A DNA stretch of 64,000 bases from Acidobacteriota bacterium. Its GTDB lineage: Bacteria > Acidobacteriota > Thermoanaerobaculia > Multivoradales > UBA5704. Made by a program: the position numbers and the translations under genes. This document shows, piece after piece, positions 45,324 through 63,348 of this stretch (positions within the stretch are counted from its first letter, which is position 1; each line of letters opens with the position of its first letter). Under the pieces are notes generated by a model, which was not told where the DNA came from, searched no databases, and saw only the letters and a list, made by a program, of their open reading frames with translations. The DNA is taken from positions 10,021-74,020 of the forward strand of contig JBDTZG010000024.1 in the NCBI GenBank assembly GCA_040005235.1. The letters are read 5' to 3'.

Positions 45324-45869
45324 TCAGCCCGAGAAGACGTCGACGCGTTCGTCGTCCGCGGTTTCGGCGAGCGAGCCGGCGCGGTGGAGGAAGCGCAGCA
45401 GGCGATGAAAGCCGGCGAGCATCTCGCCGAGCGCCTGTTCCTCTTCTTCCGGTAGCGGACGGTCGATCCCGAGCGTGCGATAGACGTCGACTTTCGGTCC
45501 CGGCTCGCCACCGGCCGCCAACCCGCCGCGCCAGACCGAGGCCCAACCGCTCGGGTTCTGCGGTTCCGGGCGACGCCCGGTGAGAGGGCGCTCGTTGACG
45601 ATCTGGAGCGCGCTGTGAAGATCGGACAAGTCGCTACCGAGCGAATCGAGGATCTTTTCGAGCGTGTCCAGGGACGGCTTCTGTTTGCCGGTTTCGTACG
45701 CCGAAAGCATCGCCTTGGTGATGCCGGCCGTATCGGCCACCTGGTACTGCCTCTTACCCTGGCGGTCGCGAAGCCAGCGCAAGGATCTCCCCAAACCATG
45801 AAAGATTGGCATGGCGACAACGATAGCGCGACCGATCTTCCTTGGCAACCGTAAGCTCAGTTCTTTCAA
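45324..45869 (-). CDS. XRE-family HTH transcriptional regulator with a C-terminal domain
   Basis: HTH_3 QYQVADTAGITKAMLSAYETGKQKPSLDTLEKILDSLG; the start may be the internal M at about 45812. Confidence 0.65.
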   Translation of the reverse strand: MKELSLRLPRKIGRAIVVAMPIFHGLGRSLRWLRDRQGKRQYQVADTAGITKAMLSAYETGKQKPSLDTLEKILDSLGSDLSDLHSALQIVNERPLTGRRPEPQNPSGWASVWRGGLAAGGEPGPKVDVYRTLGIDRPLPEEEEQALGEMLAGFHRLLRFLHRAGSLAETADDERVDVFSG

Positions 45870-46061
45870 TAACTTACATCCTGGCCTGTAGTAGCTTGCG
45901 ACCGCAACTTGTTGCTTGACAAAGACAAGATGCAGGGCCTAGAGTTGCTGGCAACGAGAAAATTTTTTGCCGCAATGCTGCCGACGACCTGCTTTTTTAT
46001 CTTTCCGGGGCGTCGAGTTTCCTTCCTGGAGAGAGGCCGGCCCGGCAGAGGAGGTCCGAAA

Positions 46062-47480
46062 GTGACGGCGAGCCATCCTGATCCATCCCTTCTGGAGCGC
46101 TTTCTGCGGGGCGAGTTGGACGCTGAAGAGCGGAAAGGTGTCGTTCGCCACCTGATCGGAGGGTGCGCAGCCTGCCGCAGGTTGGCCGGCGATCTCTGGC
46201 AGGCACCTCCTCATCTCCCGGCCGCGCCGACCTCCGGCAGCGTCTCGTCCGAGCAAGGCCCCACCGAATACCTAGCCGGATACTCAAGCGAATACCGCGA
46301 GGGCATGGACCGCGCGGTTCGCATCGCGCGGGAGCGACGGCCGGTGCTGGCGGCCGCTCGGCAGAAAGCGCCTCATTTGCTCGCCGAGTTGCTCGCGGCG
46401 CCCCCCTCGGAGCGTCTCGCTCTGGCTCACAAGGAGCCCCGGTTCGCGATTCCGCCGCTGTGCGAAGAGATCCTCCGTCGGCGCGCCGAGGTGGGACGGA
46501 CCGCTCCCGGCCCCACCCGAGGGTATGAAAAAGCCGGAGAGCCTCCGATCGAGCAACGCCAGCTGGTGGACCTTGCGCTCGCGCTCGCCGAGCGTCTCGA
46601 TGCCTCCGAGTGGGGATTGTCGATCGTACGTGACCTCGAAGCCAGAGCCTGGGCGCATCGCGGGGACGTCGCCCGCGAAGCGGGGCTTCGCGAGGAGGCG
46701 CAGCTGGCGTTCCGCATGGCGCACTCGCTCTACGCCTTGAGCTCCCAGGACCCCTGGGAATGGGCCGAGATTTCCCGGTACGAGGCACGCTTCGAGTTTT
46801 TTCGCGGTCAGGCGGAGGCGGCCACCGCCCTGGGTCTCGAATCCGCGGCGCTCTACAGAAAGCTCGGCGAGCGCGATCTACTGGCCGCGACCCTCACCGA
46901 AGTCGGGCCGATGGCGGTGCGGGCGAAACGGCCGGACCTCGCGATCGAGGCGCTTGCCGAGGCGATCGGGCTGTTCGATTCCGCGCGCGAACCGCGGCGG
47001 CTCGCCTGCAGTCTCAAGGGACTCGGTGCATTGCTCCTGGAAACCGATCGGGCGCGCGAGTCGCTGGGACATCTTTGGCGCGCCCGCTCGCTCTTCGAGC
47101 GGCTCGGCGAGGAAGACGAAGTTCTCCGCGTCCGCTGGCTCGAAGGGCGCGCGGCGCTCGCGGTCGGCAGCGTGGCGGAGGGAGAGGCCGCGCTTCTCTC
47201 GGTGCGGGGCCATCTCCTTGCGGCCGGGCTCAGCCAGGACGCCGCGGGCGTCCTGCTCGACCTGGTCCAGCTTTATTGGAGCCAAGGACGCCACGGAGAG
47301 ATGCTCGACCTGTTCGGGGAGATCTTCTTGCCCTATCGCACGCGCGACCTCGAACGGGGGACGATCGGGGCGGTCCTGATGCTGCGCCGCGCGGTCGAGA
47401 CGGGGAGCGCCACGATCGAGATGGTCCGCGAAGTCGCAAGGTACCTGGCCGCAAGCCGGCCGAGCTGTCGATTGGGATAA
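46062..47480 (+). CDS. zf-HC2-type putative zinc-finger plus TPR-like repeat regulatory protein
   Basis: GTG start after a GGAGG RBS; N-terminal HLIGGCAACRRL anti-sigma-type zinc finger; helical repeat region downstream. Confidence 0.55.
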   Translation: MTASHPDPSLLERFLRGELDAEERKGVVRHLIGGCAACRRLAGDLWQAPPHLPAAPTSGSVSSEQGPTEYLAGYSSEYREGMDRAVRIARERRPVLAAARQKAPHLLAELLAAPPSERLALAHKEPRFAIPPLCEEILRRRAEVGRTAPGPTRGYEKAGEPPIEQRQLVDLALALAERLDASEWGLSIVRDLEARAWAHRGDVAREAGLREEAQLAFRMAHSLYALSSQDPWEWAEISRYEARFEFFRGQAEAATALGLESAALYRKLGERDLLAATLTEVGPMAVRAKRPDLAIEALAEAIGLFDSAREPRRLACSLKGLGALLLETDRARESLGHLWRARSLFERLGEEDEVLRVRWLEGRAALAVGSVAEGEAALLSVRGHLLAAGLSQDAAGVLLDLVQLYWSQGRHGEMLDLFGEIFLPYRTRDLERGTIGAVLMLRRAVETGSATIEMVREVARYLAASRPSCRLG

Positions 47481-47550: not shown

Positions 47551-50679
<3,129 letters not shown>

Positions 50680-51575: not shown

Positions 51576-51787
51576 GCTCGTTCTCTCCTCTAAAGCGGCT
51601 CGGTAGGCAGGCGAGCTTACCGGTCCCGGCCGGAGGTCTACCTTTCGGCTCTGGTGGCCGCTTTTTGAGGATACGCCGGTTTGGGGGGAAAAGTTGCGGC
51701 CGGCACGTTGCGAACGTCGCGCTCAACACCTTGCCCCTGGCCGCCTCCCCCGCTACGCTTGGCTCGCAAATCTTCTCGGGAGGATCC

Positions 51788-54700
51788 ATGCGCCGCACGA
51801 TCGTCTGTTTTTTCGCGCTCGCCACTCTGCTCTCGCTCCCATCGCTCGGCGCAAGTGCCGGAATCGATCCCGCCTTGCTCGCGGGACTCAAGGCGCGATC
51901 GATCGGTCCGGCGGCGATGAGCGGCCGGATCGCCGCGATCGATTCGGACCCACGCAATCCCTCGGTGATCTGGATCGGTTCCGCCACCGGCGGCGTCTGG
52001 AAATCCGAAAGCGCCGGCCTCACCTGGGAGCCGGTTTTCGACGATCAGCCGGTCGCCTCGATTGGCGCGGTGGCGATCGATCCGACGAACTCCGCGGTGG
52101 TCTGGGTGGGTACCGGCGAGGGCAACCCACGCAACAGCGTCTCGATCGGCGAAGGGCTGTTCAAAACCCTCGACAGCGGCAAGACCTGGAAGCGGATGGG
52201 GCTTGAGAAGACGGAGCACATCCATCGGATCGCGATCGACCCGCGCAACCCCCAAACCGCCTACGTGGCGGCCCTCGGCAAGATTTGGGGCGAGAACCCC
52301 GAGCGTGGCGTCTACAAGACGACCGACGGCGGCGCCACATGGCGGCGCGTGCTCTACGTCGACGAGCGCACCGGCGCCGCGGACCTGGTGATGGACCCGA
52401 GCAACCCGAACAAGCTGTACGCGGCGATGTGGGACTACCGGCGCTGGCCGTACAAATTTCGCTCCGGCGGCCCGGGCTCGGGGCTCTACGTGAGCAACGA
52501 CGGCGGCGAAAACTGGAAGCGGCTGACCGAGGACGACGGCCTGCCGAAAGGCGAGCTGGGCCGGATCGGTCTTGCGATCGCGCCCTCGAACCCGAAAATC
52601 GTCTACGCGCTGGTCGAGGCGAAGAAGCCGGCCCTGCTCCGATCGGACGACGGGGGCCTGACCTGGGATGCGGTCAACAGCGATCCGGACATCAACGAGC
52701 GGCCCTTCTATTTCGCCGACATCCGCGTCGATTCGGCCGATCCGAACCGCCTCTATCGGCTGGAGGTGTCGCTCGACGTCTCGACCGACGCGGGCAAGAC
52801 CTGGAAGACCTTGGCGAGCTCAAGCGCGGCGCATCCCGATCATCATGCGCTCTGGGTCGATCCGCTCGATCCGAACCACCTGATCGACGGCAACGACGGA
52901 GGCGTGTTCACCACTCGCGACCATGGGGACACCTGGTCGTTCGCGGGGGGCCTGCCGCTCTCTCAGCTCTACCACATAAGGTACGACAACGACCTGCCGT
53001 ACCACGTCTACGGCGGCTTGCAGGACAACGGCTCGTGGCGCGGCCCCTCCTCCGTCTGGGAGGGTGGCGATATCCGCAACCTGCATTGGCAGGAGGTCTG
53101 CTTCGGCGACGGTTTCGATACCGCCCCGGATCCGCGCGATTCCTCAAAAGGGTACGCGATGAGCCAAGGGGGCGCGCTGATTCGCTGGGATCTGAACACC
53201 GGCGAGCGCAAATCGATCCAACCGGTGCGCGAAAAGGATGGCCCTGAGCTGCGCTTCAACTGGAACTCCGCCCTCGGCCTCGATCCGTTCGACCCTGACA
53301 CGATCTATTACGGCAGCCAGTTCGTCCACAAATCGGTCGACCGAGGCGAGACCTGGACGGTGATCAGCCCCGATCTCACCACCAACCGCGCCGAGTGGCA
53401 GCCGAAGGAAACCGGCGGCGTGACCCAGGACGTGACGGGCGCCGAGAATTACACGACGCTGCTCGCCATCGAACCGAGCCCCAAGGCGAAGGACCTGCTC
53501 TGGGTGGGTTCGGACGACGGTCGCTTGCAGATCACGCGGAACGGCGGCAAGGATTGGACGAGTGTCGAAGGCCACGTCCCCGGCGTCCCGGCGAACACGT
53601 GGATTCCGCACATCCACGTTTCGACCTACGACCCGGCGACGGCGTTCGTGGTGTTCGACGACCACCGGCGCGCGAATTACGCCACTTACGTCTACCGGAC
53701 CGACGACTACGGCAAGACCTGGAAGAGCCTCGCGACGCCGGACCTTCGCGGCTACGCCCTCGCGATCACCCAAGATCCTGTCACCCCGAATCTGCTGTTC
53801 CTGGGCACCGAATTCGGCCTCTGGTTCTCGCTCGATGGCGGCGGCAAGTGGTATCCCTTCCGGCATGGCCTGCCTACCGTCTCGGTGATGGACCTCGCGA
53901 TCCAGCCCCGCGATCGCGACCTGCTGATCGCCACCCATGGCCGCGGCATCTACATCGTGGACGACATCGAATCGCTGCGAGAGCTGACCGCGGCGACGCT
54001 CGCCGAGCCGCTCCATCTGTTTCCGATCGCCGACGCGCAGCAGTTTTGGGCCTCTCGCTCGACCGGACCGCGGTTCCCGGGGGGCAATGACTACAAGGGA
54101 AAGAACAGGCCCTACGGCGCTGCGCTGACGTTCGTGGTCAACAGTCCCGACCTGCCTCATCCCGACGCGGCGATCGAGCGCGAGCGAAAGGAGGCCAAGA
54201 GAAAGGCCGATGTCGCAACTCCTGAGGCGCAGAAGCCGGGCGGCGGGAACACCCCGGGCACCGAGGGCGACAAGAAGACGAAGGTGCAGATTCAGGTCAG
54301 CAACGCCGCGGGAGAGCGGGTTCGCTCGTTCGAGCAGAGAGTCACGCAGGGGGTCAACCGGGTCGCCTGGGATCTCCGCGGCGACCCCTTCAAAGAGCCG
54401 CCGACCAAGAAACCGCCCTCACCCTTCCGCTCCGGCGGGCCGCAGGTCGTCCCAGGCACCTACACGGTCAAGATCACCTATGGCGACAAGTCCGCAGAAG
54501 GCCCCGTTCGCGTGGTGGGCGATCCGCGATTCCACCTGTCGGAGGCCGATCGGGCGGCAAACGACGCCGCGATGCACCGCGCCGGAGCGCTCAAAGAGCG
54601 CGTCTCCCTCGCCGTCGAACGGATCGTCCGGACGAAATCCGACCTCAAAACGATCCTCGATCGGGTCAACCGGCGCGACGACGAGCGCCGAAGGACCGAC

Positions 54701-55039
54701 GGAACGACCGAAAAATCGTCGGAGGTCAAGGCCCTGGAGAAGGCGGCAAAAGATCTCCGCCAAAAGTTGGAAGGCGTCGAGCGGAAGCTCTGGAAGTCCG
54801 ACGAGATCGTCGGCCGCCCCAAAGGCGACGACCTGGCCTCGGAGCTTGACGATCTACTCTCCCGACTCGGCAGCTCCTGGGACGCCCCGAACGCCACGCT
54901 GCTCATGGGGATCGAAGAGGAGGAGGAAAAAGCCGGCCCGATCTTCGCGGAACTGGACGACCTGCTCACGAAGGACGTCGCGGCCTTCCGCTCGATGGTT
55001 CCGGCGGGGGAACTGGAGTTGTTGGGTGGAGGGCGGTAA
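51788..55039 (+). CDS. secreted BNR/Asp-box repeat protein, paralogue of 47551-50679
   Basis: GGGAGG RBS before the ATG at 51788; signal peptide; Asp-box repeats (SESAGLTW, TLDSGKTW, TTDGGATW, SNDGGENW and others); 1083 aa. Confidence 0.75.
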   Translation: MRRTIVCFFALATLLSLPSLGASAGIDPALLAGLKARSIGPAAMSGRIAAIDSDPRNPSVIWIGSATGGVWKSESAGLTWEPVFDDQPVASIGAVAIDPTNSAVVWVGTGEGNPRNSVSIGEGLFKTLDSGKTWKRMGLEKTEHIHRIAIDPRNPQTAYVAALGKIWGENPERGVYKTTDGGATWRRVLYVDERTGAADLVMDPSNPNKLYAAMWDYRRWPYKFRSGGPGSGLYVSNDGGENWKRLTEDDGLPKGELGRIGLAIAPSNPKIVYALVEAKKPALLRSDDGGLTWDAVNSDPDINERPFYFADIRVDSADPNRLYRLEVSLDVSTDAGKTWKTLASSSAAHPDHHALWVDPLDPNHLIDGNDGGVFTTRDHGDTWSFAGGLPLSQLYHIRYDNDLPYHVYGGLQDNGSWRGPSSVWEGGDIRNLHWQEVCFGDGFDTAPDPRDSSKGYAMSQGGALIRWDLNTGERKSIQPVREKDGPELRFNWNSALGLDPFDPDTIYYGSQFVHKSVDRGETWTVISPDLTTNRAEWQPKETGGVTQDVTGAENYTTLLAIEPSPKAKDLLWVGSDDGRLQITRNGGKDWTSVEGHVPGVPANTWIPHIHVSTYDPATAFVVFDDHRRANYATYVYRTDDYGKTWKSLATPDLRGYALAITQDPVTPNLLFLGTEFGLWFSLDGGGKWYPFRHGLPTVSVMDLAIQPRDRDLLIATHGRGIYIVDDIESLRELTAATLAEPLHLFPIADAQQFWASRSTGPRFPGGNDYKGKNRPYGAALTFVVNSPDLPHPDAAIERERKEAKRKADVATPEAQKPGGGNTPGTEGDKKTKVQIQVSNAAGERVRSFEQRVTQGVNRVAWDLRGDPFKEPPTKKPPSPFRSGGPQVVPGTYTVKITYGDKSAEGPVRVVGDPRFHLSEADRAANDAAMHRAGALKERVSLAVERIVRTKSDLKTILDRVNRRDDERRRTDGTTEKSSEVKALEKAAKDLRQKLEGVERKLWKSDEIVGRPKGDDLASELDDLLSRLGSSWDAPNATLLMGIEEEEEKAGPIFAELDDLLTKDVAAFRSMVPAGELELLGGGR

Positions 55040-55191
55040 CGGCAGGGGAAGCTCACCGAACTCGTTCGGGAGGCCCCTTTCAGCCCACCACGGGGTACTT
55101 TTCCCTCCCCCAGGATCCGCCCGCCCGACAAGGAATAGCCGTACCTGAGCCCGCATAGCCGCCGCAGCCGATGAAAAGCGAGGAGGTGCGG

Positions 55192-55863
55192 TTATTTGCG
55201 AGTGGTACCGCGATTCTCCTCGCGGGTTGAATCGATAATCTGCATTGCGGCAGTGGTCAAGGCACCTCGGCTGAGTGTTCCGTCAAGTCTCTTGACGTTG
55301 GAGGCTATCGACGCCAGTGCCTCATAACGACTCCGAACCTCTCCAAAAAACTCGGACCCTTTTAATTCAATTACATCTCGGGCTCGCTGCCTTAATCGCT
55401 CCTCGCAGACACCTACCGGGGTATCAATCCACAAGATCAGGTCAGCAATCTCAACCGGCGTCGTCACAAAGTCAAAAACAAGCGCCAGGCGGTGGTCCAG
55501 CGCCGGTCCATAGGCTAGATTACCAAGATAAGATCGATCAACTAGAATCAGATCAAATTTCTTAAGCCTCGGTGAGATAACAATCCTGTTCGACCGCCTG
55601 CTTGCGACAGCCCACAGAAGCTCTCTCTCAATATCGTCAAGGTCGCAATTTGGACACTTACATACCCTGTCCAGGATCTCTGAAACAGTTAGTGTTCCGC
55701 CAGATAGCGTACTCGCGTAGTTATCCAAATCGCTACAAAACTCCTTTGTCGCCAAGACATTCAAATCAACTCTATAGGCAGAGTTTAGCGAATCGACCAA
55801 CGTCGTTTTTCCGCACCCATCTATTCCGTCTATCTTAACGACAACAGCCCTTGAGTTATCCAT
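55192..55863 (-). CDS. thymidylate-kinase-like (dNMP kinase family) P-loop kinase
   Basis: P-loop KIDGIDGCGKTT, DRSYLGNLAYG (the Tmk DR[YF]..S..AY motif) and a lid-like region; low GC (about 45-50 percent). Confidence 0.65.
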   Translation of the reverse strand: MDNSRAVVVKIDGIDGCGKTTLVDSLNSAYRVDLNVLATKEFCSDLDNYASTLSGGTLTVSEILDRVCKCPNCDLDDIERELLWAVASRRSNRIVISPRLKKFDLILVDRSYLGNLAYGPALDHRLALVFDFVTTPVEIADLILWIDTPVGVCEERLRQRARDVIELKGSEFFGEVRSRYEALASIASNVKRLDGTLSRGALTTAAMQIIDSTREENRGTTRK

Positions 55864-55879
55864 CCTCGTGGTTACCCGC

Positions 55880-56557
55880 TTAGCTTTCAGGCACCGGGGG
55901 AGTGAAGTCGAGCTCGTACTGTCCGATCTCCGGAATTTCTTGCAGCTCCCTTGGTATCATATGGCGAAACTTTTTAGCTTTTGTCGCGTAAAGTTGCCGA
56001 ATATTAGGATTACTGGTATCTATAACAAGCGGCTCGGTGTTCACAACTATTCCGGCGCCAGATACACCACTGATCTTATCCGGATTATTAGTCATCAGGC
56101 GAACCGCTTCAACGCCCTTCTTCTTCAGGAAATCTCCGATTCGAGAGAAATCTCGCCCCTCGGGGGCAACACCAATCTGCATGCGGGAGTCATAGGTATC
56201 AATGCCTTGTGTTTCTAGGTCTGTAGCTTTGACTTTAGCTGAAAGGCCCGCTCCCCGACCATCAATTCTGAGATATAGTAGTATACCATGTTTCTCAGCT
56301 TTAAGCCTACCCAGAGCCATCTCTAATTGTTGAGCGCAATCGCACAACTCACTGCCAAATATTTCTCCAAATACGCATTCGGAGTGGATCCGCACCAACG
56401 GCTCCAATTGACTGAACGGTGCTCCAAAATATACCGCTAGATCGCCATCTACAGCTTCAGTTAGCGACACTGATTCGACGGTAATATTCCCCCACTTTTT
56501 CGTCTTGAACGAAGCCTGCGAATGCAGAAAAGTCCTCAGGTCCATGACCGTTTCCAT
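55880..56557 (-). CDS. GTP cyclohydrolase II (RibA) homologue outside a riboflavin operon
   Basis: RIHSECVFGEIFGSELCDCAQQLEMAL (zinc-ligand Cys triad), GILLYLRIDGRGAGL, and GIDTYD...RDF...VRLMTNNPDK all align by eye with E. coli RibA. Confidence 0.75.
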   Translation of the reverse strand: METVMDLRTFLHSQASFKTKKWGNITVESVSLTEAVDGDLAVYFGAPFSQLEPLVRIHSECVFGEIFGSELCDCAQQLEMALGRLKAEKHGILLYLRIDGRGAGLSAKVKATDLETQGIDTYDSRMQIGVAPEGRDFSRIGDFLKKKGVEAVRLMTNNPDKISGVSGAGIVVNTEPLVIDTSNPNIRQLYATKAKKFRHMIPRELQEIPEIGQYELDFTPPVPES

Positions 56558-56559
56558 CC

Positions 56560-57918
56560 TTAATCATCAGGTCCAGCTTGCCTGGGAACAAACTCCTCGA
56601 TAATCTGTTCTAGTAGAGAATCTCTGTTGATTTCAGTGACACTTATCAGTCGGCTGCGAATATGATGGTGGATGTATCCAAGAAACGAGTGGCCCTTCGC
56701 TGCAACGATCCCGAGAATTGAGAGGGAGGTATCTTCCATTGCAATTCGCATAAGGCGCTGAAACTCAGGGTTCTGTAATTGTATCGGGCCAATCTCATCC
56801 ACGATGAGTAAAGCTCGGCGATGAGCGAGTCCCTTGTCAATTGCCGGCAGTACCAATTCTTTCATGGTCGCGCTGTTAAGCTCATACGTGCCACTCTCTG
56901 TTTTGAGAGCTAGCTGGCCTATATGCTGACCATCGACAGTAACTGTTTCAAAACCGATGCGCTCGCTGCCGTTTCGAATCTCACGCGTAAAGAACCCAAC
57001 GACCTCGAACCACGACGATCTATTTCGGATTTCGCAAACAGCTTTCTCAAGTAGGGTGCTTTTGCCTACACCAGGCTCGCCCGTTAAAAACAGGCACTTT
57101 GAGCTTAAGCGCCAAATATTTTCGACCTGTTTAAGGTAAAGGTCGTAAACGGTGCGCGAATCGTAGGCGTTTAGAGCGAAATCTAGTTTGTCGTCAAATG
57201 TTACTTGGAAACCTTGGAGACGTACCAGCGCCTCGCGATCCTTGAGACTAATGTGCCGAGGATCTCTTATGACGACTGTAATATCCACCGGGTACGGAAA
57301 GAACCGGACCTCGATGTTTGAAGCGAAGTCTCCTGCTTCGTTAGCAAGAATCTCAATCATTCTGAGCCCACTTTGCATTCGGTCGATCATTAGATCGGGC
57401 GTGATGAGATTTGCATTTCGGAATGCCATGAAGCCCGCAATATAATTGCTGTCGGCAACGGCAACCCACCGAAGGCGACCTCCCCTTCGCACAAAGGCCA
57501 GGAGTTCCTGTCGGCAAGTTTCCGCAATTAGCCGTCCAGTTTCTTGAACCAGAACGAGTTCTTTGTCAGCCTTGATGATCAAGTCGCGCTCGCTGGACTT
57601 TCTGGAAAAGAAATCGTCAGCCACCGTCTTATCTAGAAGACGCCTTACCACTGCTTCCACGTCACGCAGTTGAGTAAAAATCTGGTCACGAGCCGCTCGG
57701 TCTTTCAAAGTACCAAATGCAACGATTCCTAACGCAGTAGCGGTAGCTCCAACGGCGTATTCGGGCTTCCCACCAAAAGTTGCGAACCACGCAGCCAGGA
57801 CTGAAAGGCCGATGCTAAGGATCGTGTCGAAATTTGTCCAGATTAACAGTAGAAATCGCACTATTCCTCGATGAGGCGCCTTGTTTTTCGGAGAATCAGG
57901 GTTCATGGACCGGAACAC
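56560..57918 (-). CDS. membrane-anchored protein with a C-terminal THEP1-like nucleoside-triphosphatase domain
   Basis: Two N-terminal TM helices and a middle domain of unknown function. Walker A LTGEPGVGKSTL and Walker B LLIVDEIGPIQL resemble the NTPase_1/THEP1 family. Confidence 0.6.
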   Translation of the reverse strand: MFRSMNPDSPKNKAPHRGIVRFLLLIWTNFDTILSIGLSVLAAWFATFGGKPEYAVGATATALGIVAFGTLKDRAARDQIFTQLRDVEAVVRRLLDKTVADDFFSRKSSERDLIIKADKELVLVQETGRLIAETCRQELLAFVRRGGRLRWVAVADSNYIAGFMAFRNANLITPDLMIDRMQSGLRMIEILANEAGDFASNIEVRFFPYPVDITVVIRDPRHISLKDREALVRLQGFQVTFDDKLDFALNAYDSRTVYDLYLKQVENIWRLSSKCLFLTGEPGVGKSTLLEKAVCEIRNRSSWFEVVGFFTREIRNGSERIGFETVTVDGQHIGQLALKTESGTYELNSATMKELVLPAIDKGLAHRRALLIVDEIGPIQLQNPEFQRLMRIAMEDTSLSILGIVAAKGHSFLGYIHHHIRSRLISVTEINRDSLLEQIIEEFVPRQAGPDD

Positions 57919-58179
57919 CTCTTGCGGTTGCTACCAAGGCTCAGTCCGAAGCTTGGTCTTCGTAGATAGTGTACGCTATCTCTTCCGGAGAGCTCCCATC
58001 GCGCGTGGAGGTTCCTGAAGACGAACAGGCAGTCGATATCTTCCCTGTCGTTGTAGACCTGAGCGGCAATCCAGAGGTCGCTTCCATGGGTGAAGGGATC
58101 GATTGTGATGAGTTTTCACAGAGAAGAGCGGCGCGCAAAGTGCCGGCTTCGGCGGCCGCCAACGGGATCGGTCTTCCTT

Positions 58180-58510
58180 CTGGAGGGCGTGACGATTCTC
58201 CGGCAAGATCTGCTGTCCTTCTGGAAGGATCGCCTCTCTCAAGGGGTCACCGGTTTTAGGCCAATTTCACTGGTCCCTCCCAGGGGATCACTGATTTTCG
58301 GCCAAAATCACCGTTCCTTCCCGAGGGATCGCTCTTCCTTCCCAAGGGATCACTGATTTTGAGCCAAAATCACCGTTCCTTCCCGAGGGAGCACCCTTCC
58401 CTCGGTCGGGATCACTGATTTTCGGCCAAAATCGCTCTTCCCTCCCGCGGGATCGGTGATTTTGGCGCAGGATCGCCATTCCCTCAGGAAGGAACGGTGA
58501 TTTTGGGGGC
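58180..58510. repeat. tandem array of about 5-6 roughly 62-bp units, each with an imperfect palindrome GGGATCACTGATTTTCGGCCAAAATCACCG; degenerate at both ends
   Basis: Three near-identical copies of GGGATCACTGATTTT(C/G)(G/A)GCCAAAATCACCGTTCCTTCCCGAGGG, with degraded copies either side. Confidence 0.8.
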
Positions 58511-58513
58511 AAC

Positions 58514-59218
58514 CTAGCGAACGCGGCCCCCGCGCAGGCGTTCAATCAGCGCGCCCAGCGCGGCACCGATCACAACCATGGCGACGATCGGCCCGGTGTG
58601 GGACGGCAGGACGTGGCTTGGGAAGGTGAAGGGGCAGATCAGGCGCCAGGAGGAGTCGGCGAGCAGTCCAGCGGCGAGGCCGGCGAGGGCTCCGGCGGTG
58701 GCCGGTCGGAACGAGAGGCCGCGGCTCAGCAGCCAAAGGCCGATCAACAGGAGCGGCGAGGCGATCAGGAATTCGTAGTACAGGCAGGCGTTTAGCTCGA
58801 CGGGCGCCAGTCCGGGCGGGGCGGGAAAGGGGCTTTGGCGGAAGGCGAGCGCCAGGCCGGCGAGGTGAAATCCGAAGGCGCCGAGGGCGCAGGCCCAGAG
58901 GGTGGTGCGCGGTAGGCTGCTCCCGGGAGTCGATTCGCGTAGCGCGCTGACCGCGACCATCAAAGCCAGAGACAACTGGGCGAACGAAAGTCCCCAGGCG
59001 AGGACCGCCCCCAGCTGCGGCAAGTCGGGCCGGAAGCCGTACTTGCTCCAGAACGTCGCGAGGGCCAGGAGCGTCCAAGGCACCAGCAGAATCGAGCGCT
59101 GAAACGGCGGCGCGAGCGGCTTGACGGGTTTCAGGTCGGCGTAGATCGCTCGGCGCAAGGCTTCAGGCAGAGCGGCGTCGTTTTCGTTGGTCATTTTTGG
59201 ATCGCTCATGGTGATCAT
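58514..59218 (-). CDS. NrsF/DUF1109-like multi-TM anti-sigma factor
   Basis: Start at MITMSDPKM (59218); six predicted TM helices; immediately downstream of an ECF sigma gene. The ORF extension to 59566 overlaps that sigma gene. Confidence 0.55.
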   Translation of the reverse strand: MITMSDPKMTNENDAALPEALRRAIYADLKPVKPLAPPFQRSILLVPWTLLALATFWSKYGFRPDLPQLGAVLAWGLSFAQLSLALMVAVSALRESTPGSSLPRTTLWACALGAFGFHLAGLALAFRQSPFPAPPGLAPVELNACLYYEFLIASPLLLIGLWLLSRGLSFRPATAGALAGLAAGLLADSSWRLICPFTFPSHVLPSHTGPIVAMVVIGAALGALIERLRGGRVR

Positions 59219-61801: not shown

Positions 61802-62323
61802 TCAAGTGCGCGGGGGGTAGACGCCCTGAAGGGCGATGTTGAAGTAGAACGTCAGGTACGGCTGCAGGTTGTTGTGCGGCTGGTCGCCGCCTGCGGGTGG
61901 AAGTCCCTGATCCGACATCGGGACCAGCGGTGCACCTGCGGGAGGCACATAACCGTTGCCGGCTGCCGGCCTCGCGAAAGAGTTGCTGGCGGCGCTGGTT
62001 CGGTTGCCAGGGGCTCCCAGTGACATCAGGGGATGACTATGTGAAGGGATTTCACTTTCTAGCAGGCTGACAGTTTCGCTGCCGCCAGTCTCGCCGAGGT
62101 CATGCAGCGAAAGGCCAGGACCTTGCCCCGGGTGCATCGGCGCTCTTCCTTGAAGGTCGGGCAAGGCGAAGTTGGACTTTCCATCACCCCCGTACGTCGT
62201 TCCCAGGAGCGAGAAGAGGGCGGTGTTCTGAGACAATGGCAACAGCTGTCCGTCGCACCACGCCCAACCCTTCGGCGCGAAGTTGAACGGGAAAATGCGG
62301 ATTTCTGCCACAAACGGGTCCAT
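61802..62323 (-). CDS. phage tail collar domain protein (MdpB-like), copy 1
   Basis: FVAEIRIFPFNFAPKGWAWCDGQLLPLSQNTALFSLLGTTYGGDG...FALPDLQGR is a canonical tail-collar domain. Confidence 0.8.
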   Translation of the reverse strand: MDPFVAEIRIFPFNFAPKGWAWCDGQLLPLSQNTALFSLLGTTYGGDGKSNFALPDLQGRAPMHPGQGPGLSLHDLGETGGSETVSLLESEIPSHSHPLMSLGAPGNRTSAASNSFARPAAGNGYVPPAGAPLVPMSDQGLPPAGGDQPHNNLQPYLTFYFNIALQGVYPPRT

Positions 62324-62331
62324 GTCTCCTC

Positions 62332-62835
62332 CTAGGTCGGGCTCGGGAAGATCCCGAACAAGGAAATGATGAAGTCAACGCAAAGATAAGGCTGGAAGTT
62401 CGTATGAGGCTGACTTCCACCTGTCGATCCGATCGACTGCGGTGCCATCGCCGCGGCAGGGGCTCCTGACTGATAGAGGGTGGCTGCCGACGATTCAGCA
62501 GGAAGGTTGTTGTTCGCATTCGGATCGTTTCCCACCGAGTTCGAGCACAGAAGAGGATGGCTGTGGGCTGTGATCTGGTTTACCGTGAGAGTGATCTCTT
62601 CCGCGCCTCCGGTCTCCGCCAGGATAAAGCCGCTGCCCTGGTGAGCTGGGATCCGGCCCCGCAGGTCGGGTAGCGCGAAGGTGCTCTGACCGTCGCCGCC
62701 GTAGGTCGTTCCGATCAGTTGGAACAAGGTCTCGTTCTCGGAGATCGGCAGAAGCTGCCCTTCACAAAACATCCATCCGGCCGGGGCAAAGTTCCCGGCG
62801 AACATTCGAATCTCTCCGACGTATGGTTGGGCCAT
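62332..62835 (-). CDS. phage tail collar domain protein (MdpB-like), copy 2
   Basis: YVGEIRMFAGNFAPAGWMFCEGQLLPISENETLFQLIGTTYGGDG...FALPDLRGR. Confidence 0.8.
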   Translation of the reverse strand: MAQPYVGEIRMFAGNFAPAGWMFCEGQLLPISENETLFQLIGTTYGGDGQSTFALPDLRGRIPAHQGSGFILAETGGAEEITLTVNQITAHSHPLLCSNSVGNDPNANNNLPAESSAATLYQSGAPAAAMAPQSIGSTGGSQPHTNFQPYLCVDFIISLFGIFPSPT

Positions 62836-62844
62836 GCCGGTCTC

Positions 62845-63348
62845 CTAATTCGGACTCGGGAAGATGCCCTGGAGGGCAATCGAAAAGTTCAGGATCAAGA
62901 AAGGCTGCATGTTCAGGTGCGCTTGGGACCCGCCGACATTCGCGACGGTTCCACCGATCATGGCCGCCAAGTTCGTGGGCGCGAGGTATGGATTCGCCGG
63001 TGCCTGGCGACTCAAGAGATTCGCCGTTGGGATGGGCTGTGACGCGTCCGTTGACGTGGCGTTGAGCGTGTGCGTATGCGTCGGAAGCTCGGCGATGCTG
63101 AGCGTATGGGCCTGTTCGCCGCCCCGCTCGCCGAGGGTATGCCCGCTGCCTACGTGAATCGGAGTGCGACCGCGAAGGTCGGGCAGCCCGAAGTTGACAC
63201 GACCGTCTCCCCCGAAAGTCGTCCCCAGGAGCGAGAAGAGCCCCTGGTTCTGGTTGATCGGGAGCAGCTGCCCATCACACAGCGCCCAGCCTTTGGGTGG
63301 AAAAACGAAGCTCATGATCCTTATTTCGCTCAAAAACGGTTCTGCCAT
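62845..63348 (-). CDS. phage tail collar domain protein (MdpB-like), copy 3
   Basis: FLSEIRIMSFVFPPKGWALCDGQLLPINQNQGLFSLLGTTFGGDG...FGLPDLRGR. Confidence 0.8.
   Translation of the reverse strand: MAEPFLSEIRIMSFVFPPKGWALCDGQLLPINQNQGLFSLLGTTFGGDGRVNFGLPDLRGRTPIHVGSGHTLGERGGEQAHTLSIAELPTHTHTLNATSTDASQPIPTANLLSRQAPANPYLAPTNLAAMIGGTVANVGGSQAHLNMQPFLILNFSIALQGIFPSPN

What the first reader, a model, noticed from the sequence alone, without database searches (positions are those of the whole stretch)
55192..57918. Candidate undescribed nucleotide-targeting system: TM-anchored THEP1-like NTPase, GTP cyclohydrolase II homologue and thymidylate-kinase-like kinase in a tight low-GC operon
Three minus-strand genes separated by 2 and 16 nt, with GC about 45-50 percent against about 68 percent background. 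The middle gene aligns convincingly with RibA (zinc Cys triad C-x10-C-x-C, the catalytic Arg loop and the C-terminal NNPxK region), but no riboflavin genes are adjacent. The other two genes are nucleotide enzymes: a dNMP-kinase-like P-loop kinase with the Tmk DR[YF]..S..AY motif, and a membrane-anchored NTPase with THEP1-like Walker motifs and an unknown middle domain. A foreign operon combining a GTP-destroying cyclohydrolase with a nucleotide kinase and a membrane NTPase could be a nucleotide-depletion or nucleotide-modifying antiviral system, analogous to the dCTP-deaminase and dGTPase defence systems. Alternatively it could be a prophage-derived nucleotide-metabolism cassette or a toxoflavin-like small-molecule pathway.
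Basis: partly seen in the sequence, partly recalled or inferred. Interest (0 to 1): 0.85.

Follow-up and report, generated by a model that had tools for sequence, protein, structure and literature searches.

The report
Mobile cassette with altered GTP-cyclohydrolase enzyme
A horizontally moving gene pair, here with a dedicated nucleotide kinase, joins a riboflavin-type GTP-cleaving enzyme that has lost a key catalytic residue to a probably membrane-anchored sensor-ATPase; it is not vitamin biosynthesis, is undescribed, and is most likely a new way for bacteria to attack the guanine-nucleotide pool during conflicts with phages or mobile DNA.

Summary
There are three tightly packed minus-strand genes at 55192-57918, with GC 0.47-0.50 against 0.63-0.69 in the flanks, and the three domain calls were correct.

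The conserved unit is a pair. The first gene encodes an N-terminal hydrophobic hairpin, a PLD-like domain without the HKD motif, and a THEP1-type NTPase. The second encodes a diverged GTP cyclohydrolase II. When loci are retrieved through the GCHII alone, 30 of 34 carry the NTPase gene directly upstream on the same strand. They span many phyla, and the pair's GC is nearly always 10-20 points below its surroundings.

The GCHII is not RibA. The zinc Cys triad and the Arg nucleophile are kept, but the catalytic Tyr105 is Thr in 120 of 120 relatives, with other fixed changes. No rib genes are adjacent anywhere.

The window's Tmk-like kinase belongs to a small subfamily found only in this cassette; seven trios were verified. 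Other loci carry unrelated nucleotide kinases, dCTP deaminases or divergent ThyA-like genes instead.

Neighbourhoods include integrases, transposons, an ICE, a prophage and several defence genes. There are no matches in PADLOC, sequenced phages, plasmids, IMG/VR or the literature.

Best reading: an undescribed guanine-nucleotide-targeting conflict cassette. The function is inferred, not shown.

The parts
56560..57918 (-). Core gene 1: a 452-aa protein (448 aa from the ATG at 57906). Its parts are an N-terminal hydrophobic hairpin, a PLD-like domain and a THEP1-type NTPase.
57703..57855 (-). Predicted membrane hairpin, aa ~22-72: two hydrophobic helices followed by a long helix running to aa 95.
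   Evidence: Hydropathy is 1.6-1.7 for segment 1 and 1.27 for segment 2. AF2 helices are 17-28, 30-47 and 52-95 at pLDDT 56-73. The pattern is conserved in A1. This is a prediction only.
57103..57633 (-). PLD-like middle domain (aa 96-272) without an HKD motif; probably a ligand-binding or sensor domain.
56584..57102 (-). THEP1/NTPase_1 domain (aa 273-445) with intact Walker A and Walker B motifs.
55880..56557 (-). Core gene 2: a diverged GTP cyclohydrolase II, here called the 'T-clade'. It is 225 aa, or 221 aa from the ATG at 56545.
   Evidence: Pfam PF00925 scores 128.2 bits. Alignment to E. coli RibA 2bz0 shows the Zn Cys triad and Arg128 kept and Tyr105->Thr112. Thr is present in 120 of 120 relatives, together with N95G, N100A, Q108E and N118R. 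TIGR00505 scores 150.6, below the 205.85 cut-off.
55192..55863 (-). Accessory gene: a cassette-specific Tmk-like nucleotide monophosphate kinase, 223 aa.
   Evidence: Pfam Thymidylate_kin scores 51.8 bits. TIGR00041 scores 53.6, below the 83.25 cut-off. The best PDB matches are thymidylate kinases at E = 1e-7. The subfamily has 19 relatives at 43-62% identity, then drops to 28-29%. It is always found as NTPase-GCHII-kinase. All five aligned members have 'AYG' where Tmk has 'AYQ'.
55150..58290 (.). Extent of the low-GC foreign insert that carries the operon and its upstream untranslated region.
   Evidence: Composition profile. No flanking direct repeats, tRNA or integrase were found in the window.

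Best explanation
The region is a horizontally transferred conflict cassette, most likely anti-phage or anti-mobile-element.

**Effector (inferred).** The effector is a neofunctionalised GTP-cyclohydrolase-II-fold enzyme.
- It keeps the machinery that binds GTP, expels pyrophosphate through a covalent guanylyl-arginine intermediate, and hydrates and opens the imidazole ring with zinc.
- It has replaced the tyrosine needed to complete the riboflavin-type reaction.
- It would therefore irreversibly convert GTP into a dead-end ring-opened product, probably a formamidopyrimidine-type nucleotide, or into GMP. It would not make the riboflavin precursor DARP.

**Partner.** The partner gene is translationally coupled to the effector. 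It encodes a probably membrane-tethered protein in which a non-catalytic PLD-like ligand-binding domain is fused to an active THEP1-type NTPase. This protein is inferred to sense a trigger and to switch or restrain the enzyme. It may also add its own NTP hydrolysis.

**Accessory genes.** These are optional:
- in this window, a dedicated Tmk-like NMP kinase;
- elsewhere, AAA_17/18 or guanylate-kinase-like kinases, dCTP deaminases and divergent ThyA-like enzymes.
They are inferred either to funnel further nucleotides into the reaction or to widen the attack to the pyrimidine pool. The expected outcome is that replication of an invading element is starved or poisoned.

**What is shown and what is inferred.**
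- Shown: gene architecture, conservation of the pair, clade-specific active-site changes, folds, mobility and neighbourhoods.
- Inferred: substrate, product, trigger, regulation and the defence role.
For: **The pair is conserved.**
- It is present in 6 of 6 loci retrieved through the NTPase.
- It is present in 30 of 34 loci retrieved through the GCHII alone: 11 of 11 GTDB species genomes, 17 of 20 metagenome loci and 2 of 3 further loci.
- Order and strand are always the same, and the stop and start codons often overlap by 4 nt.

**It is horizontally mobile.**
- Hosts include Acidobacteriota, Planctomycetaceae, Chthonomonas, Chloroflexia, Bacillota, Alpha-, Beta- and Gammaproteobacteria and Actinomycetota.
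- The pair's GC is 10-20 points below its flanks in most loci.

**The GCHII is a distinct clade.**
- Tyr105->Thr in 120 of 120 relatives, with N95G, N100A, Q108E and N118R also fixed. The Cys triad (119 of 120), Arg128 and Lys154 are kept.
- It scores below NCBI's ribA equivalog cut-off.

**The partner protein looks active and regulatory.**
- Walker A and B residues are invariant.

**Nucleotide enzymes have been recruited repeatedly.**
- Kinases lie immediately downstream in 13 of 32 loci where the downstream sequence is visible, and they come from three unrelated families.
- The Tmk-like subfamily is confined to the cassette.
- Accessory dCTP deaminases pass the NCBIfam equivalog cut-off, and the ThyA-like genes are highly divergent. 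They share the pair's low GC inside a prophage.

**The context fits a conflict system.**
- L004: GmrSD_N + RelA_SpoT with the same low GC as the pair.
- L038: an ICE, next to a GT4-conflict-NACHT-TPR protein.
- L003: a moron inside a prophage.
- L041: two integrases. L042: a DDE transposase and TniQ/TnsD.
- L017: a large protein with a pAgo-associated SIR2/PNTD-like region. L033: a TOTE primase.
- Other neighbours hit AbiEi, TIR, NucC, NsnA, REase and DRT models.

**Precedent.** A defence system containing a thymidylate synthase and a dNMP kinase has been experimentally validated in E. coli (PMC13092281).
Against: - There is no experimental evidence of any kind.
- No component matches a known defence family in PADLOC.
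- Many loci sit among ordinary housekeeping genes with no defence gene nearby, including the window itself. The roughly 10% PADLOC hit rate among neighbours includes generic domains and was not compared with a matched background.
- A kinase next to a depleting enzyme is not obviously needed for depletion.
- The role assigned to Tyr105 rests on recalled literature that I could not retrieve. I only found a secondary source that calls these residues 'catalytic tyrosines in RibA'.
- Four GCHII-clade loci lack the NTPase, so the enzyme can work without it.
- The TM anchor is only marginally supported.
Confidence: 0.5

Rival explanations
1. **Antiviral or signalling nucleotide synthesis instead of depletion.** The T-clade enzyme makes a ring-opened guanine nucleotide monophosphate, such as the 5-formylamino-pyrimidinone ribotide. 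The dedicated NMP kinase and cellular NDK raise it to the di- and triphosphate. That product either poisons phage polymerases, in analogy to viperin products, or acts as a second messenger. The PLD-like/NTPase protein would sense or transduce it.
For: - The zinc site and Arg nucleophile are retained while only the Tyr is lost. That argues for a defined alternative product and not simple hydrolysis.
- A kinase subfamily exclusive to the cassette has lost the thymine-reading Gln ('AYG' for 'AYQ'), which suggests a non-thymine substrate.
- Kinase-linked GCHII proteins carry an extra C-terminal tail, and their genes overlap the kinase gene.
- The PLD-like domain most resembles a small-molecule-binding domain, TrmB.
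- By recalled knowledge, prokaryotic viperins are often accompanied by nucleotide kinases.
Against: - The kinase is absent from about 60% of loci.
- The kinases are of three unrelated families, so a shared unusual substrate is not guaranteed.
- No polymerase-like, cyclase-like or obvious effector component is present.
- The product is entirely inferred.
Confidence: 0.2
2. **Selfish nucleotide-metabolism module of mobile elements.** The cassette is an auxiliary metabolic cassette that reshapes the host nucleotide pool for the benefit of the prophage, ICE or transposon that carries it. It might, for example, convert dCTP towards dTTP and adjust guanine nucleotides. It would not be defending the host.
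For: - The pair is found inside a prophage together with Dcd and a ThyA-like gene, on an ICE and next to Tn7-like genes.
- The accessory set (Dcd, ThyA-like, Tmk-like) mirrors the dTTP synthesis route.
Against: - It is absent from 50,697 sequenced phages, 72,556 plasmids and IMG/VR.
- Inside the prophage, the cassette's GC (0.31-0.35) differs from that of the phage genes (0.45-0.51). It is therefore a moron and not part of the phage core.
- Many loci have no mobile element nearby.
- The ThyA-like genes are far below the thymidylate synthase cut-offs.
Confidence: 0.12
3. **Small-molecule biosynthesis or salvage.** The GCHII homologue starts a pathway to a pteridine, toxoflavin-like, deazaflavin-like or other pyrimidine metabolite, and the NTPase and kinase serve as pathway or resistance enzymes.
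For: - By recalled knowledge, GCHII homologues start toxoflavin biosynthesis, and S. coelicolor has paralogues with altered products. A recent review states that one S. coelicolor copy has 'a completely new function unrelated to flavin biosynthesis' (PMC13151069).
- Flavoproteins occur near some loci.
Against: - No tailoring enzymes (methyltransferase, deaminase/reductase, lumazine-synthase-like) are conserved with the pair. Beyond the two core genes, the only recurrent neighbours are nucleotide kinases and deaminases.
- The flavoprotein neighbours have host-like GC, not cassette-like GC.
- A two-gene unit that hops across about ten phyla is atypical for a biosynthetic cluster.
Confidence: 0.1
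4. **Ordinary housekeeping genes.** These are a RibA (riboflavin biosynthesis), a Tmk and a THEP1 NTPase that happen to be adjacent.
For: - NCBI annotates them as 'GTP cyclohydrolase II RibA', 'dTMP kinase' and 'nucleoside-triphosphatase'.
- The GCHII passes the NF001591 'subfamily' cut-off, 158.8 against 148.
Against: - Tyr105->Thr is fixed in the whole clade.
- All three proteins score below the equivalog cut-offs.
- GC is foreign.
- No rib genes are adjacent in any of the roughly 40 loci.
- The distribution is very rare and patchy: 11 of 185,579 species genomes matched the pattern scan.
- The GCHII is strictly coupled to a fusion protein that is found nowhere else.
Confidence: 0.03

Closest known systems
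GTP cyclohydrolase II (RibA; E. coli structure 2BZ0/2BZ1)
   Same: - Same fold family: PF00925 at 128 bits, phmmer E = 9e-34 to 2bz0.
- The zinc ligands Cys54/65/67, the Arg128 nucleophile, Lys154, Arg94 and Arg49 are conserved.
   Different: - The catalytic Tyr105 is Thr throughout the clade. N95G, N100A, Q108E and N118R are also fixed, Q91 has become hydrophobic and R64 has become Leu or Phe.
- It scores below the ribA equivalog cut-off.
- It is never found in a rib operon, and it is coupled to a PLD-like/THEP1 fusion gene.
- By recalled knowledge (Spoonamore & Bandarian 2006 and 2008; Kaiser et al. 2002; not retrievable here), replacing this Tyr changes the product from DARP to the formylated intermediate or to GMP.
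Nucleotide-depletion defence enzymes (defensive dCTP deaminase/AvcD, dGTPase; Tal et al. 2022 and Hsueh et al. 2022, recalled and cited within PMC12265719)
   Same: - A nucleotide-destroying enzyme is combined with a P-loop kinase or NTPase module.
- Small mobile low-GC cassettes with a patchy distribution.
- Some loci of the present cassette actually carry a dCTP deaminase.
   Different: - The catalytic fold is different (GCHII), and so is the presumed target (GTP, by ring opening).
- No PADLOC hit.
- The partner is a separate PLD-like/THEP1 protein, probably membrane-tethered, and not a fused kinase domain.
- No experimental proof.
THEP1 / human NTPCR (PF03266, structures 1YE8 and 2I3B)
   Different: - THEP1 proteins are stand-alone and about 170-190 aa long. 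Here the domain is fused to a hydrophobic hairpin and a PLD-like domain.
- It scores below the NCBIfam equivalog cut-off.
HKD-less PLD-fold domains (TrmB sugar-binding domain 2F5T; FAM83 DUF1669; Pfam DUF5919)
   Different: - No detectable Pfam match for the window protein itself.
- It has its own set of invariant polar residues: E120, Q125, E126, R167, N168, R205, Y209, D219, R233 and K244.
- The ligand is unknown.
Thymidylate synthase + dNMP kinase defence system validated by DefensePredictor (PMC13092281)
   Same: It shows that ThyA-fold and dNMP-kinase genes can be parts of experimentally validated anti-phage systems. Similar accessory genes flank the present pair.
   Different: - That system has no GCHII or THEP1 component. 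PF00925 does not occur in the held supplements.
- Homology between its genes and the accessories here was not tested.
Prokaryotic viperins with adjacent nucleotide kinases (recalled knowledge)
   Same: A nucleotide-transforming enzyme is optionally accompanied by a nucleotide kinase. This is a possible analogy for producing an antiviral nucleotide.
   Different: There is no radical-SAM enzyme and the chemistry is different. This is a functional analogy only.

Membership tests
GTP cyclohydrolase II / RibA | Match to PF00925 above the gathering score | tested here: met
   128.2 bits against a cut-off of 23.3.
GTP cyclohydrolase II / RibA | Zinc-binding Cys triad (E. coli C54, C65, C67) and the Arg128 nucleophile | tested here: met
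   C61, C72, C74 and R135 in the window protein. Conserved in 119-120 of 120 relatives.
GTP cyclohydrolase II / RibA | Catalytic Tyr105 | tested here: not met
   Thr112 in the window protein. Thr in 120 of 120 relatives. Tyr is present in all three solved RibAs that were aligned.
GTP cyclohydrolase II / RibA | NCBIfam ribA equivalog score (TIGR00505) | tested here: not met
   150.6, below the 205.85 cut-off. Only the looser 'subfamily' model NF001591 is passed, 158.8 against 148.
GTP cyclohydrolase II / RibA | Riboflavin-operon context, or being the only ribA copy in the genome | tested here: inconclusive
   No rib genes are next to the pair in the window or in the annotated related loci. The rest of the source genome could not be searched.
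GTP cyclohydrolase II / RibA | Converts GTP to DARP + formate + PPi | not testable with these tools
   Needs an enzyme assay.
THEP1 / NTPase_1 | PF03266 match, THEP1 fold, Walker A and B motifs | tested here: met
THEP1 / NTPase_1 | Stand-alone single-domain protein of about 170-190 aa; NCBIfam NF010248 equivalog score | tested here: not met
   It is a 452-aa three-part fusion. The score is 102, below the 156 cut-off.
Phospholipase D superfamily | PLD fold | tested here: met
Phospholipase D superfamily | Catalytic HxK(x)4D (HKD) motif | tested here: not met
   There is no invariant or nearly invariant His among the domain's conserved columns.
Thymidylate kinase (Tmk) | PF02223 match, P-loop and DR motif | tested here: met
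   51.8 bits against a cut-off of 27. GIDGCGKTT and VDRS are present in the sequence. The best PDB hits are thymidylate kinases.
Thymidylate kinase (Tmk) | dTMP kinase equivalog score (TIGR00041); the thymine-contacting Gln of the 'AYQ' motif | tested here: not met
   53.6, below the 83.25 cut-off. All five aligned cassette kinases have 'AYG'. The role of the Gln is recalled knowledge.
Known anti-phage defence systems (PADLOC-DB 2.0) | Significant match of any component to a defence-system model | tested here: not met
   The GCHII has 0 hits. The NTPase has only P-loop noise (E >= 0.005). The kinase has a weak hit to PDC-M51B at 8e-7.
Anti-phage defence systems in general | Enrichment in defence islands or mobile elements | tested here: inconclusive
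   Defence, conflict or mobile-element genes lie near the pair in L003, L004, L005, L006, L017, L033, L038, L041 and L042 and at other loci. They are absent in others, including the window. No matched background was computed.
Anti-phage defence systems in general | Protection against phage on heterologous expression | not testable with these tools
   Needs an experiment.

The most novel reading that the evidence does not exclude
The T-clade enzyme opens the imidazole ring of GTP but stops at a formamidopyrimidine-type ribonucleotide. The cassette-specific NMP kinase converts this towards the triphosphate.

Bacteria would then be deliberately making a 'damaged-base' guanine nucleotide, either as an antiviral polymerase poison or as an immune second messenger read by the PLD-like/THEP1 protein. 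This chemistry has not been seen in any immune system.
Probability: 0.2. Interest if true: 0.9.

Novelty: new variant of a known kind. Interest (0 to 1): 0.75.

Why it matters
If the defence reading is right, GTP cyclohydrolase II chemistry (zinc-dependent purine ring opening) would join the repertoire of immune effectors that act on the nucleotide pool. So far that repertoire consists of deaminases, triphosphohydrolases, phosphorylases and NADases.

It would also define three new things:
- a new sensor module, an HKD-less PLD-like domain fused to a THEP1 NTPase;
- a functional context for THEP1-type NTPases, whose biological role is still unclear;
- a cassette-specific family of nucleotide kinases.

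Whatever its function, hundreds of database proteins are currently auto-annotated as 'GTP cyclohydrolase II RibA', 'dTMP kinase' and 'nucleoside-triphosphatase'. These annotations are almost certainly wrong, and that matters for metabolic reconstruction of riboflavin and dTTP pathways in MAGs.

The system is small (2-3 genes, about 2.7 kb), so it is directly testable.

Tried and rejected
1. **A conserved fourth small gene upstream of the NTPase.** Small ORFs of 60-73 aa exist in several loci, but they share no similarity. Rejected.
2. **Promoter and terminator scan of 54900-58700.** The counts are no higher than in shuffled sequence. Uninformative.
3. **Insertion scars.** There are no flanking direct repeats at the island borders. 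The only tRNA in the window lies 44 kb away, and no integrase was found among the window neighbours scanned.
4. **A phage-borne or plasmid-borne origin.** No relatives in IMG/VR, none in 50,697 phage records, and only an unrelated plain NTPase in plasmids.
5. **Literature.** Seven full-text searches combined GCH II, THEP1, DUF5919 or RibA-like with defence, conflict or depletion terms and found nothing relevant. The DefensePredictor supplements contain no PF00925.
6. **Primary papers on the Tyr105 mechanism.** Ren et al. 2005 and Spoonamore & Bandarian 2006 and 2008 are not held, so that point rests on recalled knowledge. It is supported by a secondary mention of 'catalytic tyrosines' and by a review statement that one S. 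coelicolor RibA paralogue has a new function.
7. **A flavin link through neighbouring flavoproteins** (PNPOx, flavodoxin-like, luciferase-like, FAD oxidoreductases). Rejected: their GC matches the host and not the cassette, and none recurs.
8. **An integron cassette.** The repeat array lies 5' of the operon and has no attC-like placement. Not pursued.

Full report
**1. The observation**

They are 55192-55863 (223 aa), 55880-56557 (225 aa) and 56560-57918 (452 aa), separated by 16 and 2 nt. NCBI's models for the same MAG (Acidobacteriota) start four codons later for two of them: 448 aa for the NTPase and 221 aa for the GCHII. A Shine-Dalgarno-like AAGGA sits about 9 nt before the second ATG of the middle gene (sequence).

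GC is 0.47-0.50 over 55250-57750, against 0.63-0.69 on both sides. Pfam confirms all three domain calls:
- Thymidylate_kin, 51.8 bits;
- GTP_cyclohydro2, 128.2 bits;
- NTPase_1, 108.3 bits, covering aa 276-440 of the long protein.

All three fall below NCBI's curated equivalog cut-offs:
- dTMP kinase, 53.6 against 83.25;
- ribA, 150.6 against 205.85;
- NTPase, 102 against 156.

The window neighbours are ordinary host genes. Two Sortilin/BNR proteins lie on one side. An NrsF anti-sigma/ECF sigma pair, a GNAT and three Collar-domain proteins lie on the other. There is no tRNA, integrase or flanking direct repeat at the island.

**2. The conserved unit is a pair**

Homologues of the 452-aa protein are rare: 23 hits, of which about 20 are full-length. 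In all six genomic contexts retrieved through these homologues, a GTP_cyclohydro2 gene follows immediately on the same strand.

The reverse test is independent of the NTPase. I built an alignment of the GCHII relatives (A2) and used it to fetch loci, then scored the neighbours with profiles of the three parts of the NTPase protein.
- All 11 loci from GTDB species genomes carry the NTPase gene directly upstream.
- So do 17 of 20 metagenome loci.
- So do 2 of 3 further long contigs.

That makes 30 of 34 loci in all. The exceptions are three low-GC loci whose GCHII gene has in-frame stops under table 11, probably from a recoded lineage, and one locus (L036) where a DCD-like gene precedes the GCHII and a cytidine-deaminase-like gene follows it.

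Stop and start codons of the two core genes often overlap by 4 nt, which indicates translational coupling.

Hosts include Acidobacteriota, Planctomycetaceae, Chthonomonas, Chloroflexia, Bacillota, Sphingobium, Novosphingobium, Noviherbaspirillum, Marinobacterium, Lentzea and Micromonospora. In most loci the pair's GC is 10-20 points below its flanks, for example 0.38 against 0.57-0.61 in L001, 0.49 against 0.65 in L011 and 0.38-0.43 against 0.58 in L015. This is a rare, horizontally moving cassette.

**3. The GCHII is a neofunctionalised clade, not RibA**

HMMER alignment to E. coli RibA (2bz0) is gap-free over the catalytic core with an offset of 7.
- Cys54, Cys65 and Cys67 align with C61, C72 and C74.
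- Arg128 aligns with R135.
- Tyr105 aligns with Thr112.
- The three solved RibAs that were aligned all have Tyr at this position.

In a MAFFT alignment of the 120 closest relatives with E. coli RibA, several changes are fixed:
- Tyr105 is Thr in 120 of 120.
- Asn95 is Gly in 120 of 120.
- Asn100 is Ala in 118.
- Gln108 is Glu in 120.
- Asn118 is Arg in 120.
- Gln91 is always hydrophobic, and Arg64 is Leu or Phe.

The Cys triad, Arg49, Arg94, Lys101, Arg128 and Lys154 are retained.

From established RibA enzymology, recalled and not retrievable here, I take two points. The zinc site is needed for ring opening, while pyrophosphate release proceeds without it. The Tyr is needed to reach DARP: its replacement gives GMP or the formylated intermediate, and a Tyr/Met switch explains the altered product of S. 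coelicolor paralogues. Within the held library I could only confirm that these residues are called 'catalytic tyrosines in RibA', and that one S. coelicolor RibA paralogue has 'a completely new function unrelated to flavin biosynthesis'.

My inference is that the clade still binds GTP, still expels PPi and still opens the ring, because otherwise the zinc site would decay. It probably ends at a product other than DARP. No rib gene is adjacent in any annotated locus.

**4. The partner protein**

The family alignment (A1) and an AF2 model (mean pLDDT 84, with the domains above 90) show three parts.

- **aa ~17-95, helical region.** It contains two hydrophobic segments followed by a long helix. 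Hydropathy just reaches the usual TM threshold for the first segment and not for the second. A membrane hairpin is therefore plausible but unproven.

A profile of the middle domain, searched against 1.84 billion representatives, finds 295 proteins, 71 of them at E <= 1e-30. Nearly all have the same ~440-aa architecture. Weaker hits include ~250-270-aa proteins that lack the NTPase domain, one fusion to a TauD dioxygenase, and a faint link to DUF5919.

**5. Accessory genes**

The window's third gene belongs to a small Tmk-like subfamily: 19 relatives at 43-62% identity, then a drop to generic Tmk at 28-29%. Every member with context is the third gene of an NTPase-GCHII-kinase trio. These are the window, L004, L006, L018, L020, L041 and L042. 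About seven more sit on contigs whose lengths match those of contigs carrying the pair. All five aligned members read 'AYG' where Tmk reads 'AYQ', which hints at a substrate other than dTMP.

Other loci carry different genes in the same slot.
- **Unrelated kinases.** AAA_17/18/DNMK-like kinases occur in L012, L016, L023, L025 and L040, and a guanylate-kinase-like gene occurs in L008. In total, 13 of 32 loci with visible downstream sequence have a kinase there.
- **dCTP deaminases.** Those in L003, L024 and L021/L022 pass the NCBIfam equivalog cut-off.
- **ThyA-like genes.** Those in L003 and L008 are highly divergent, scoring 34-53 bits against cutoffs of 108-327.

In the L003 prophage, Dcd and the ThyA-like gene share the pair's GC (0.31-0.35), while the phage genes are at 0.45-0.51. 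They therefore belong to the same insert.

Repeated recruitment of non-orthologous nucleotide kinases and pyrimidine deaminases points to a function centred on the nucleotide pool.

**6. Context**

| Locus | What lies next to the pair |
|---|---|
| L004 | GmrSD_N + RelA_SpoT genes with the same low GC |
| L003 | moron inside a prophage, between the lysis genes and the tape-measure gene |
| L038 (Micromonospora) | a conjugative element (TraG/TrwB, primase, NlpC/P60), beside a 1372-aa GT4-conflict-NACHT-TPR protein |
| L041 | two integrases |
| L042 | a DDE transposase and TniQ/TnsD |
| L005 and the P0015 locus | transposases |
| L006 | a weak ParD match |
| L017 | a 1577-aa protein with a pAgo-associated SIR2/PNTD-like region |
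| L033 | a TOTE-type primase |

A PADLOC scan of 144 neighbours within +/-3.5 kb also hit AbiEi, TIR effectors, NucC, NsnA, PD-T4-2, DRT and type II REase models. That is roughly a tenth of the neighbours, but it includes generic domains and has no matched background.

Other loci, including the window and L040, lie among housekeeping genes.

None of the three proteins matches a PADLOC model convincingly. The NTPase protein has no relative in sequenced phages or plasmids, and the GCHII clade has none in IMG/VR. Full-text searches returned nothing on GCH II or THEP1 in defence. DefensePredictor's held supplements contain no PF00925, although that study validated a system containing a thymidylate synthase and a dNMP kinase.

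**7. Interpretation**

The best-supported reading (confidence about 0.5) is an undescribed conflict cassette. A GCHII-fold enzyme irreversibly consumes GTP under the control of a PLD-like-sensor/THEP1-NTPase partner, which is probably membrane-tethered. Optional kinases and deaminases funnel or broaden the attack.

The main rival (0.2) shares this architecture. It proposes that the ring-opened product is itself the active agent, either an antiviral nucleotide or a signal, and that the dedicated kinase activates it.

The remaining alternatives rank lower:
- a selfish mobile-element metabolic module (0.12);
- a small-molecule pathway (0.1);
- plain housekeeping genes (0.03).

Substrate, product, trigger and phenotype are all inferred.

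**8. Novelty and verdict**

Relative to known nucleotide-pool defences, this is a new variant. It has a new effector fold and chemistry, a new sensor module and a dedicated kinase family. If the product turns out to be an immune nucleotide, it would be categorically new.

Interest is high (0.75). The cassette is robustly conserved, undescribed, mis-annotated in databases, small and directly testable. Its function has not been demonstrated.

Noticed in passing
window 58160-58510: An array of palindromic repeat units spaced 21, 41 and 62 nt apart. The core is GATCACTGATTTTCGGCCAAAATCACCGTTCCTTCCCGAGGGA. It lies just upstream of the cassette, next to the 3' end of the NrsF gene. It occurs nowhere else in the window and is strongly structured as a single strand (z = -5.2). 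Its nature is unknown; it could be REP/MITE-like, an operator array or an insertion remnant.
   Followed up: partly
window 61802-63348: Three tandem paralogous genes of 167-173 aa, each with a Phage Tail Collar domain (92-103 bits). No other phage genes were seen nearby.
   Followed up: no
window 47551-50679 and 51665-55039: Two divergently oriented paralogues of about 1040-1120 aa, both Sortilin-Vps10/BNR-repeat proteins, flank a 254-aa gene with no Pfam hit.
   Followed up: no
L035, L037, L039 (GCHII at L039:9968-10579): T-clade GCHII genes interrupted by in-frame stop codons under table 11, in low-GC contigs. This suggests a recoded lineage. No NTPase partner was detected. In L039 the gene sits within an array of ~500-aa paralogues that have no Pfam hits.
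   Followed up: partly
L036:830-2681: A variant cassette without the NTPase: a DCD-like gene (285 aa), then the T-clade GCHII, then a cytidine/dCMP-deaminase-like gene (128 aa). Here the GCHII is linked directly to pyrimidine deaminases.
   Followed up: partly
P0266, P0230-P0289 (protein hits): The PLD-like middle domain also occurs fused to a TauD/TfdA dioxygenase (P0266), and in ~250-270-aa proteins that lack the NTPase domain. P0256 and P0230 show weak DUF5919 matches.
   Followed up: partly
window 55880-55950 and related loci: GCHII proteins that are followed by a kinase are longer (206-243 aa, with a C-terminal tail) than pair-only ones (199-205 aa). Their genes often overlap the kinase gene by 8-59 nt, which hints at a physical GCHII-kinase interaction.
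   Followed up: no
window 45500-46250: A second, milder GC dip (0.59 against ~0.68) about 10 kb upstream of the cassette. Not examined.
   Followed up: no
L001:10173-10823 and L009:1179-2072: Two other low-GC genes occupy the slot after the pair: a DUF6602 protein (followed by a NUDIX gene) and an FRG-domain protein. Neither has an NCBIfam match.
   Followed up: no
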